A DNA stretch of 64,000 nt from Escherichia phage vB_EcoM_G4507. This document shows positions 44,089 through 45,976 of the stretch, piece by piece. The translations under genes and the position numbers were made by a program. Positions within the stretch are counted from its first letter, which is position 1; the number at the start of each line of letters is the position of its first letter. The stretch is from sequence record NC_054919.1. The stretch is one strand, 5' to 3'. The notes under the pieces were generated by a model that had not been told where the DNA came from, ran no database searches, and worked only from the letters and a program-made list of their open reading frames with translations.

Positions 44089-45976
44089 TAACCTTAATTG
44101 GTTTGTTGGTGTTGTTGAAGATAGAATGGACCCATTAAAATTAGGTCGTGTTCGTGTTCGTGTGGTTGGTCTGCATCCACCACAAAGAGCACAAGGTGAT
44201 GTAATGGGTATTCCAACTGAAAAATTACCATGGATGTCAGTTATTCAACCTATAACTTCTGCAGCAATGTCTGGAATTGGAGGTTCCGTTACTGGACCGG
44301 TAGAAGGAACTAGAGTTTATGGTCATTTTTTGGACAAATGGAAAACTAACGGAATTGTTCTTGGCACGTATGGTGGAATAGTTCGCGAAAAACCGAATAG
44401 ACTTGAAGGATTTTCTGACCCGACTGGGCAATATCCTAGACGTTTAGGAAATGATACTAACGTACTAAACCAAGGCGGAGAAGTAGGATATGATTCGTCT
44501 TCTAACATTATCCAAGATAGTAACTTAGACACCGCAATAAATCCCGATGATAGACCACTATCAGAGATTCCAACTGATGATAATCCAAATATGTCAATGG
44601 CTGAAATGCTTCGCCGTGATGAAGGATTAAGACTAAATTTTTTTTTTTTTTTTTTTTTTAAGAGACAGAGATGGTTTTTTTTTTTTTTTTTTTCAAGCAG
44701 AAGACGGCATACGAGATCAGCCTCGGTCTCGTGGGCTCGGAGATGTGTATAAGAGACAGATCCAAATATGTCAATGGCTGAAATGCTTCGCCGTGATGAA
44801 GGATTAAGACTAAAAGTTTATTGGGATACAGAAGGATATCCGACAATTGGTATTGGTCATCTTATCATGAAGCAGCCAGTTCGTGATATGACCCAAATTA
44901 ATAAAGTTTTATCAAAACAAGTTGGTCGTGAAATTACCGGAAATCCAGGTTCTATTACAATGGAAGAAGCGGTAACTTTATTTGAACGCGATTTGGCTGA
45001 TATGCAACGTGACATTAAATCACATTCTAAAGTAGGACCAGTCTGGCAAGCTGTCAACCGTTCTCGTCAAATGGCATTAGAAAATATGGCATTTCAGATG
45101 GGTGTTGGCGGTGTAGCTAAATTTAACACAATGTTAACTGCTATGTTAGCAGGAGATTGGGAAAAAGCATATAAAGCCGGTCGTGATTCATTGTGGTATC
45201 AACAAACAAAAGGCCGTGCATCCCGTGTTACCATGATTATTCTTACGGGGAATTTGGAATCATATGGTGTTGAAGTGAAAACTCCAGCTAGGTCTTTGTC
45301 GGCAATGGCTGCTACTGTGGCGAAGTCTTCTGATCCAGCTGACCCTCCTATTCCAAATGACTCAAGAATTTTATTCAAAGAACCAGTTTCTTCATATAAA
45401 GGCGAATATCCTTATGTGCATACAATGGAAACTGAAAGTGGACATATTCAGGAATTTGATGATACCCCTGGGCAAGAACGATATAGATTAGTTCATCCAA
45501 CTGGAACTTATGAAGAAGTATCACCGTCAGGGAGAAGAACAAGAAAAACAGTTGATAATTTATATGATATAACCAACGCTGATGGTAATTTTTTGGTAGC
45601 CGGTGATAAAAAGACTAACGTCGGTGGTTCAGAAATTTATTATAACATGGATAATCGTCTTCACCAAATAGATGGAAGCAATACAATATTTGTACGTGGC
45701 GATGAAACTAAGACGGTTGAAGGTAATGGAACTATCCTAGTTAAAGGTAATGTTACTATTGTAGTTGAAGGTAATGCTGACATTACAGTTAAAGGAGATG
45801 CTACTACTTTAGTTGAAGGAAATCAGACTAATACAGTAAATGGAAATCTTTCTTGGAAAGTTGCTGGGACAGTTGATTGGGACGTTGGTGGTGATTGGAC
45901 AGAAAAAATGGCATCTATGAGTTCTATTTCATCTGGTCAATACACAATTGATGGATCGAGGATTGACATTGGCTAA
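44072..45976 (+). CDS. 5: Baseplate hub / tail lysozyme gp5, reading frame broken by a 177-bp non-biological insertion (44638-44814)
   Basis: N-terminal ORF MEMISNNLNWFVGVVED... and C-terminal ORF (lysozyme domain EGLRLKVYWDTEGYPTIGIGH, beta-helix VEGN repeats) match T4 gp5; removing the insert gives 576 codons in frame. Confidence 0.9.
44638..44814. other. Sequencing-library artifact: poly-T runs, Nextera mosaic-end fragments, Illumina P7/i7 index primer, plus a 55-bp duplication of flanking gene-5 sequence
   Basis: CAAGCAGAAGACGGCATACGAGAT-CAGCCTCG-GTCTCGTGGGCTCGGAGATGTGTATAAGAGACAG at 44694-44759; the 8-mer matches the Nextera N710 index as recalled; 44583-44637 repeated at 44760-44814. 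Confidence 0.95.

What the first reader, a model, noticed from the sequence alone, without database searches (positions are those of the whole stretch)
44638..44814. Illumina Nextera i7 index-primer sequence and poly-T junk embedded in gene 5 (assembly/library artifact)
At 44694-44759 the sequence reads CAAGCAGAAGACGGCATACGAGAT + CAGCCTCG + GTCTCGTGGGCTCGG + AGATGTGTATAAGAGACAG. That is the P7 flow-cell primer, an 8-nt i7 index (N710 as I recall it), and the Nextera read-2 transposase mosaic end. It is preceded by two homopolymer T runs (22 and 19 nt) separated by AAGAGACAGAGATGG, and the native 55 bp at 44583-44637 is repeated at 44760-44814. This cannot be phage biology; it is a chimeric read or contig join. 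It truncates the gp5 N-terminal ORF with nonsense residues (…NFFFFFFFKRQRWFFFFFF…). Other parts of this assembly should be treated with matching caution.
Basis: partly seen in the sequence, partly recalled or inferred. Interest (0 to 1): 0.9.

Follow-up and report, generated by a model that had tools for sequence, protein, structure and literature searches.

The report
Sequencing adapter left in phage assembly
A 177-base block inside the baseplate-spike gene (gp5) of this T4-like phage sequence is leftover Illumina Nextera primer, homopolymer read noise and a 55-base assembler overlap, so it is an assembly error and not biology.

Summary
Positions 44694-44759 match the Nextera N710 i7 index primer plus the Tn5 mosaic end at 66 of 66 bases. 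They are preceded by 56 T-rich bases (T22, AAGAGACAGAGATGG, T19). The block is flanked by two identical 55-nt native copies (44583-44637 and 44760-44814).

None of 543 related Tequatrovirus records carries the block. Deleting 177 nt restores a 1728-nt gp5 gene identical to that of phage vB_EcoM_G10400.

The same 55 + 56 + 66 + 55 layout, with other indices and at unrelated genome sites, occurs in three T4-like GenBank genomes from one study. That study used Nextera libraries, MiSeq 600-cycle runs and SPAdes --careful with k=55, and then rearranged the circularly permuted contigs.

A toy k=55 de Bruijn graph reproduces the structure. An unclipped adapter read-through tip (T55 self-loop, adapter, entry k-mer) joins a circular genome edge that repeats its 55-mer at both ends, giving genome + 177 nt. 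Rotating that contig without trimming places the block inside the genome.

"Contig join" can be refined to "joined ends of one circular contig". No other adapter or structural break was found in the window. It is not a real feature, and the only value is curation.

The parts
44583..44637 (+). Native gp5 55-mer 'X', copy 1. It is inferred to be the 3' end of the original assembler contig (the k-mer overlap of the circular edge).
   Evidence: It is identical to 44760-44814, with no extension of identity on either side. ECP52 has one copy, and the two alignment blocks overlap by exactly 55 nt in the subject, at locus L006 positions 19559-19613.
44638..44693 (+). 56 nt (= k+1) of non-native T-rich junk: T22, AAGAGACAGAGATGG, T19. 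It is the reverse complement of the poly-A-like tail that a read produces after running off the P7 end. The 14-mer AAGAGACAGAGATG equals the mosaic-end tail followed by the mosaic-end head.
   Evidence: The junk is also 56 nt in three sibling records, with 0, 1 and 6 non-T bases. The toy graph gives T56.
44694..44717 (+). Illumina P7 flow-cell primer sequence CAAGCAGAAGACGGCATACGAGAT
   Evidence: Exact single match, with 0 expected by chance. It matches the primer table in PMC7757419.
44718..44725 (+). i7 index CAGCCTCG (Nextera N710)
   Evidence: The N710 oligo in PMC7757419 Table 1 carries this index.
44726..44740 (+). Nextera read-2 adapter segment GTCTCGTGGGCTCGG
44741..44759 (+). Tn5 mosaic end AGATGTGTATAAGAGACAG. 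Its TAA at 44750-44752 terminates the upstream gp5 fragment.
   Evidence: Exact single match, with 0 expected by chance. The ORF ends at 44752.
44760..44814 (+). Native gp5 55-mer 'X', copy 2. Base 44760 is the Tn5 insertion site of the read-through fragment, and this 55-mer is the graph vertex where the adapter tip enters the genome circle.
44072..44752 (+). Artefactual 226-aa ORF: the gp5 N-terminal OB domain followed by 38 adapter/junk-encoded residues after ...EGLRL (NFFFFFFFKRQRWFFFFFFSSRRRHTRSASVSWARRCV)
   Evidence: Pfam Gp5_OB, E = 9.6e-67.
44768..45976 (+). Artefactual 402-aa ORF: the gp5 lysozyme domain plus the C-terminal beta-helix, starting at an internal Met in copy 2 of X
   Evidence: Pfam Phage_lysozyme, Gp5_C and Gp5_trimer_C.
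44072..45976 (+). True gp5 gene (baseplate hub / tail lysozyme). After removal of 44638-44814 (or equivalently 44583-44759) it is 1728 nt and 575 aa.
   Evidence: The repaired gene is 100% identical in nucleotides to gp5 of vB_EcoM_G10400, MK327937.

Best explanation
This is a bioinformatic artefact with no counterpart in the phage DNA.

Step 1 (shown by sequence). A short Nextera library fragment whose Tn5 cut lay at window base 44760 was read on the minus strand. The read ran through the mosaic end, the read-2 adapter, the N710 index and P7, and then off the end of the template, where base calls become poly-A. On the + strand this reads poly-T + 66-nt adapter + native sequence. Adapters were evidently not trimmed.

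Step 2 (inferred, reproduced in a toy graph). In a k=55 de Bruijn graph, the T55 k-mer forms a self-loop. The tip edge T55 + adapter + X enters the genome circle at the first fully native 55-mer, X. The circular genome edge starts and ends with X. The emitted contig is therefore T56 + adapter(66) + X + genome + X, which is the genome plus 177 nt.

Step 3 (inferred from the published methods of the sibling genomes). T4-like genomes are circularly permuted, so the contig was rotated to match the gene order of published relatives. The overlap and the tip were not trimmed first. This pasted ...X directly onto T56 + adapter + X..., inside gp5.

Step 4 (inferred, weakest). The 14 non-T bases inside the T56 are length-preserving substitutions introduced by read-based polishing (SPAdes --careful) from noisy, adapter-tinged read tails.

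Consequence (shown). gp5 is split into a 226-aa ORF and a 402-aa ORF. Deleting 177 nt restores it.
For: The primer match is 66/66, and the oligo is the published N710 sequence.

The block is absent from all relatives. 543 Tequatrovirus records align across the site, and in each of the 25 records listed the match spans 2024 nt for 2201 query nt. The nearest genome, ECP52, is collinear apart from this block, and its alignment blocks overlap by 55 nt in the subject.

Deleting 44638-44814 gives a gp5 gene of 1728 nt that is 100% identical to G10400 gp5.

The architecture recurs. G4500 (MK327945), G10400 (MK327937) and KAW1E185 (MK373781 / NC_054922) each carry X(55) + 56-nt T-rich junk + P7/index/Nextera(66) + X(55). 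The genome sites are unrelated and the indices differ: GGCCGTGG, CTAGTACG (N702) and CGATCGGT.

It has edges of 56, 176 and G+55 nt and a contig of G+177 nt. After rotation it gives a 232-nt segment that differs from the window only at 14 positions, 44660-44674.

In other phage records the same adapter sits mostly at record ends. 31 of the 40 listed rows lie within about 150 nt of an end, which is the un-rotated form of the same tip.
Against: The window's provenance is unknown, so its assembler and k are inferred from the fingerprint alone. Its own record is not in the searchable collections.

The junk is not pure T56 as the simple graph predicts. The polishing explanation for AAGAGACAGAGATGG is untested.

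No raw reads are available to show that the X|T junction at 44637/44638 lacks read support.
Confidence: 0.87

Rival explanations
1. This is an artefact with a different origin. A chimeric read or chimeric library molecule (native X ligated or PCR-jumped to adapter-dimer/poly-T material) was threaded by the assembler through an internal site, without any joining of contig ends.
For: The adapter and the junk are certainly read-derived. The junk contains a mosaic-end tail followed by a mosaic-end head, AAGAGACAGAGATG, which looks like adapter-adapter material.
Against: It does not explain why the duplication is exactly 55 nt and the junk exactly 56 nt in four independent assemblies at four unrelated sites. 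It does not explain why these numbers equal k and k+1 of the published pipeline. It does not explain why a graph with no chimeric read reproduces the structure. A loop X to junk to X would need real reads spanning X|poly-T in each library.
Confidence: 0.1
2. The junk length and duplication arise from a different assembler or circularisation tool, such as an automatic 'circulariser' or overlap-layout software, and not from SPAdes k=55 followed by manual rotation.
For: The source of the window is unknown. A different study's phage, SaPL (MH973725), carries the same N710 adapter internally with a 259-nt duplication, so other routes to internal adapters exist.
Against: The 55/56/66/55 fingerprint is identical to that of three genomes whose methods state SPAdes k=55 and rearrangement. 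One of those genomes, G10400, is 98.1% identical to the window over 24 kb (94% of it aligned) and 100% identical over the gp5 region.
Confidence: 0.03
3. This is a genuine insertion in the phage genome: synthetic or foreign DNA physically present in gp5 and flanked by a 55-bp target duplication.
For: There is only the superficial resemblance of an insert flanked by direct repeats.
Against: The insert is a 66/66 copy of a commercial oligonucleotide with a sample index. It splits an essential baseplate gene with an in-frame stop. It is absent from 543 relatives, including genomes 100% identical in the flanks. Its poly-T run and k-sized repeat are sequencing and assembly signatures.
Confidence: 0.003

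Closest known systems
Illumina Nextera i7 index primer N710 plus Tn5 mosaic end (adapter contamination of assemblies)
   Same: All 47 nt of the published N710 oligo plus the 19-nt mosaic end are present and contiguous, 66/66. Comparable adapter remnants occur among the 109 phage records in the INPHARED copy of GenBank that matched the 122-nt junk-plus-adapter query.
   Different: In most listed records the adapter sits at a record end (31 of 40 listed rows). Here it is internal, inside a coding gene, and it is accompanied by a k-sized duplication.
k-mer terminal overlap of circular contigs from de Bruijn assemblers (SPAdes repeats the final k-mer at both contig ends; established knowledge used by circularity detectors)
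   Same: There is a 55-nt exact direct repeat equal to the k stated for the sibling genomes. The toy graph gives the X...X edge.
   Different: The two copies are not at the ends of the record. They are adjacent inside it and separated by the 122-nt tip, because the contig was rotated without trimming.
Sibling artefacts in vB_EcoM_G4500 (MK327945), vB_EcoM_G10400 (MK327937) and vB_EcoM_KAW1E185 (MK373781 / RefSeq NC_054922)
   Same: They have an identical 55 + 56 + 66 + 55 layout, the same orientation of T-rich junk relative to P7, and the same phage genus.
   Different: The genome positions differ: inside a 741-aa CDS, upstream of CDS G10400_00188 near a homing endonuclease gene, and between the RNase H and gp34 genes. 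The indices differ. The junk carries fewer non-T bases (6, 1 and 0, against 14 here).
Transposon or insertion with target-site duplication
   Same: The insert is flanked by direct repeats of native sequence.
   Different: The repeat is 55 nt, equal to k. The insert is a commercial primer plus a homopolymer, has no coding capacity, and is found in no relative. This is a resemblance in form only.

Membership tests
Illumina Nextera i7 index adapter (N710) | P7 sequence CAAGCAGAAGACGGCATACGAGAT | tested here: met
   Exact match at 44694-44717. It occurs once, with 0 occurrences in 100 shuffles.
Illumina Nextera i7 index adapter (N710) | 8-nt index CAGCCTCG followed by GTCTCGTGGGCTCGG | tested here: met
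   Positions 44718-44740. They are identical to the N710 oligo in PMC7757419 Table 1.
Illumina Nextera i7 index adapter (N710) | 19-nt Tn5 mosaic end AGATGTGTATAAGAGACAG directly abutting insert DNA | tested here: met
   Positions 44741-44759, exact. Native gp5 sequence resumes at 44760.
Illumina Nextera i7 index adapter (N710) | Not part of the organism's genome (absent from close relatives) | tested here: met
   543 records align across the site. All 25 listed lack 177 nt (2024 nt against 2201 nt), and every matching record, listed or not, aligns in at least two pieces across the site or covers it only partly. ECP52 is collinear except for this block.
De Bruijn-graph circular-contig end overlap plus unclipped adapter tip, internalised by contig rotation | Direct repeat length equals the assembler k | tested here: met
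   The repeat is 55 nt exactly, here and in three sibling records. k=55 is stated in PMC6563267. That the window itself was assembled with k=55 is inferred.
De Bruijn-graph circular-contig end overlap plus unclipped adapter tip, internalised by contig rotation | Removing one repeat copy plus the intervening block restores the native sequence exactly | tested here: met
   The repaired gp5 is 1728/1728 nt identical to G10400 gp5.
De Bruijn-graph circular-contig end overlap plus unclipped adapter tip, internalised by contig rotation | The graph model predicts the observed lengths (k+1 junk, 66 adapter, k repeat; +177 nt) | tested here: met
   The toy k=55 graph gives a contig of genome + 177 nt. 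The rotated junction differs from the window at only 14 junk positions.
De Bruijn-graph circular-contig end overlap plus unclipped adapter tip, internalised by contig rotation | No sequencing read spans the pasted junction (44637/44638) | not testable with these tools
   Raw reads are not available.
De Bruijn-graph circular-contig end overlap plus unclipped adapter tip, internalised by contig rotation | The assembly was produced by SPAdes k=55 and then rearranged | not testable with these tools
   The window's source record could not be identified. Only the sibling genomes' methods are documented.
Genuine mobile-element insertion | Element found at this or other sites in related genomes, with element-encoded functions or terminal repeats | tested here: not met
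   It is absent from 543 relatives. Its content is a synthetic primer plus a homopolymer. The only direct repeat is the k-sized native 55-mer.

The most novel reading that the evidence does not exclude
The 177-nt block could be physically present in the phage DNA that was sequenced, for example library-derived synthetic DNA recombined into a phage stock, which would make gp5 a naturally split or disrupted gene. Nothing in the evidence favours this. It is not strictly excluded only because no raw reads or amplicons are available.
Probability: 0.003. Interest if true: 0.3.

Novelty: not a real feature. Interest (0 to 1): 0.05.

Why it matters
The finding has no biological significance. Its value is in curation. 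The record splits an essential, well-studied gene (gp5, the baseplate central spike and lysozyme) into two bogus ORFs, and it adds adapter-encoded peptide to protein databases.

The same pipeline fingerprint is present in at least three other public T4-like genomes, one of them a RefSeq record (NC_054922). In one of them (G4500) an annotated protein reads straight through the adapter.

The fingerprint is k-mer repeat + (k+1) homopolymer + 66-nt adapter + k-mer repeat. It is a simple and specific screen for contigs that were rotated without trimming.

Tried and rejected
I tried to identify the window's own public record, without success.
- Exact-protein look-ups of the 226-aa and 402-aa gp5 fragments found nothing.
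- An exact scan of IMG/VR for the adapter/native junction found nothing.
- A guessed accession for vB_EcoM_G4507 (MK327946) is not in the collection.

The window may be G4507. ECP52, its 99.7% relative, is annotated by reference to G4507 proteins in this region. This remains a guess.

I searched the window for P5, Nextera read-1 and TruSeq adapters on both strands, for other homopolymers of 10 nt or more, and for other long direct repeats. None related to the artefact was found.

A literature search for a dedicated paper on Illumina adapter contamination of public assemblies returned only tangential papers, so none is cited.

I considered a fragment with a 55-bp insert as the source of the duplication. 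I rejected it because no normal read orientation yields native X followed by poly-T, and because the 55/56 lengths recur in four assemblies.

Full report
**Observation.** The sequence at 44583-44814 reads as follows:
- a native 55-mer X (44583-44637)
- T22 (44638-44659)
- AAGAGACAGAGATGG (44660-44674)
- T19 (44675-44693)
- CAAGCAGAAGACGGCATACGAGAT (44694-44717)
- CAGCCTCG (44718-44725)
- GTCTCGTGGGCTCGG (44726-44740)
- AGATGTGTATAAGAGACAG (44741-44759)
- the same 55-mer X again (44760-44814)

The identity of the two X copies extends by zero bases on either side. The P7 24-mer and the 19-nt Tn5 mosaic end each occur once in the window, and none occurred in 100 dinucleotide-preserving shuffles even with two mismatches allowed. 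A published table of Nextera index primers lists N710 as CAAGCAGAAGACGGCATACGAGATCAGCCTCGGTCTCGTGGGCTCGG (PMC7757419). The two T runs are the only homopolymers of 10 nt or more in the 64-kb window. No P5, Nextera read-1 or TruSeq sequence is present.

**Context.** The window is a Tequatrovirus (T4-like) genome segment. A 2.2-kb query across the site matched 543 phage records. In every listed record the match spans 2024 nt for 2201 query nt, which is exactly 177 nt fewer. The flanks are 100% identical to Escherichia phage vB_EcoM_G10400 (MK327937) and ECP52 (ON782582).

The affected gene is gp5, the baseplate hub and tail lysozyme. As the sequence stands, the frame from ATG 44072 reads through X into ...NFFFFFFFKRQRWFFFFFFSSRRRHTRSASVSWARRCV. 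It stops at the TAA inside the mosaic end (44750-44752), giving 226 aa. A second ORF of 402 aa starts at an internal Met in the second X copy, at 44768-45976. Pfam places Gp5_OB in the first fragment, and Phage_lysozyme, Gp5_C and Gp5_trimer_C in the second. Deleting 44638-44814 yields a 1728-nt gene that is identical in nucleotides to G10400 gp5.

**Related cases.** Searching the 122 non-native bases against the phage collection returned 109 records. Three T4-like genomes matched over the full length: vB_EcoM_G4500 (MK327945), vB_EcoM_G10400 (MK327937) and vB_EcoM_KAW1E185 (MK373781, also RefSeq NC_054922).

Reading those loci shows the same architecture to the base. Each has a native 55-mer, 56 T-rich bases, a 66-nt P7/index/Nextera/mosaic-end block, and the same native 55-mer again.
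- The genome sites are unrelated: inside a 741-aa CDS, upstream of CDS G10400_00188 near a homing endonuclease gene, and between the RNase H and long-tail-fibre genes.
- The indices differ: GGCCGTGG, CTAGTACG (N702) and CGATCGGT.
- The junk carries 6, 1 and 0 non-T bases respectively, against 14 in the window.

Most other listed records carry the adapter within about 150 nt of a record end (31 of 40 listed rows).

**Documented pipeline.** The paper describing those three genomes (Korf et al. 2019, PMC6563267) reports the following:
- Nextera tagmentation
- MiSeq v3 600-cycle sequencing
[quoted passage not shown] No adapter-trimming step was found in the text; the term 'trimm' has 0 occurrences.

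**Mechanism.** The 55-nt duplication equals k and the 56-nt junk equals k+1. I tested whether a plain de Bruijn graph predicts this.

The k=55 graph has exactly two branching vertices, T55 and X. It has three edges:
- a T56 self-loop
- a 176-nt tip (T55 + adapter + X)
- a circular edge X...X of G+55 nt

Concatenated, these give a contig of G+177 nt. Rotating that contig as if it were a circle produces a 232-nt junction that differs from window 44583-44814 only at 14 positions, all within 44660-44674. It has exactly the architecture seen in KAW1E185, whose junk is pure T56.

The block is therefore the two ends of one circular contig pasted together. One end carries the adapter read-through tip, and the other carries the k-mer overlap. 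That the window came from this or an equivalent pipeline is an inference from the fingerprint, because its own record could not be found.

**What remains unexplained.** The 15 bases AAGAGACAGAGATGG inside the junk are not predicted by the graph. Fourteen of them equal the last nine bases of the mosaic end followed by its first five. G4500 has a mosaic-end-like GTTATGTGG at nearly the same offset. Total junk length is conserved at 56 while content varies (0, 1, 6 and 14 non-T bases). The most economical reading is length-preserving substitution by read-based polishing (SPAdes --careful) from noisy, adapter-tinged read tails. This is untested.

All four native 55-mers begin with AT. With n = 4 this was not pursued.

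**Rest of the window.** Window 14297-64000 aligns to ECP52 in two collinear blocks (99.86% and 99.56% identity), and the only break is this block. The other direct repeats found are ordinary phage features. Within this window there is no sign of further assembly damage. Window 1-14296 was not compared.

**Verdict.** This is not a real feature. It is a known kind of contamination, an Illumina adapter in an assembly, combined with a known assembler property, the k-mer overlap of circular contigs, and a manual rotation step. Confidence that it is an artefact is about 0.99. Confidence in the specific three-step mechanism is about 0.87. The biological interest is negligible. The practical consequence is that 177 nt should be removed and gp5 re-annotated as one 575-aa protein, and that sibling public records need the same correction.

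Noticed in passing
L002 (MK327945.1 123562-124476, reverse complement), locus 339-570: In vB_EcoM_G4500 the same artefact lies in frame inside an annotated 741-aa 'hypothetical protein' (QBO65890.1). The deposited protein therefore contains adapter/junk-encoded residues and a duplicated 18-aa native stretch: ...HLNQFFFFFFFFFLLCGFLFFFFKQKTAYEMAVGLVGSEMCIRDRYKGAWFERNINKHSHLNQ.... From memory of T4 gene sizes, 741 - 59 = 682 aa would fit Alt; this was not tested.
   Followed up: partly
L003 (MK327937.1 109618-110527) and L004 (MK373781.1 / NC_054922.1 145851-146760): vB_EcoM_G10400 and vB_EcoM_KAW1E185 (the latter also a RefSeq record) carry the same 55+56+66+55 artefact in unannotated stretches between genes. 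In KAW1E185 it lies between RNase H and the gp34 long-tail-fibre gene. In G10400 the second copy of the 55-mer contains an ATG just upstream of the annotated start of CDS G10400_00188, so that CDS may be truncated.
   Followed up: partly
L005 (MH973725.1 6222-7106): Pseudomonas phage SaPL, from a different laboratory and country, has the same N710 adapter inside an annotated CDS. It is preceded by CTGTCTCT + poly-T and flanked by a 259-nt duplication. This is an internal adapter artefact produced by a different route.
   Followed up: partly
window 8039-8106, 19110-19162, 20547-20614, 35407-35459, 35742-35809, 39647-39714, 40012-40064: There is a family of 53-68-nt direct repeats (7 copies, 60-81% identity to the reference copy). 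Their reverse complement reads ...GTTTACA...N...TG.TA.ACTAT.... They look like T4-type early promoters on the minus strand (from knowledge of T4 early promoter consensus). They are ordinary for this genome region.
   Followed up: no
window 35913-35948 and 36470-36505: Two copies of a 36-nt element, ATACCAAAAAGCCCCAACCTTTTGGTCGGGACTAAG, 92% identical and 557 nt apart, contain a GC-rich inverted repeat. They may be repeated terminator-like hairpins.
   Followed up: no
L006 (ON782582.1 157045-164558): In the ECP52 record nine consecutive CDSs of very different sizes are all named 'trx / thioredoxin'. This looks like an annotation-propagation error in that record and is unrelated to the finding.
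   Followed up: no
window 44760; L002 516; L003 511; L004 511: In all four assemblies the native base pair immediately after the mosaic end is AT (ATCC, ATAT, ATAT, ATTA). This could be Tn5 site bias in an AT-rich genome, selection of the surviving graph branch, or chance.
   Followed up: no
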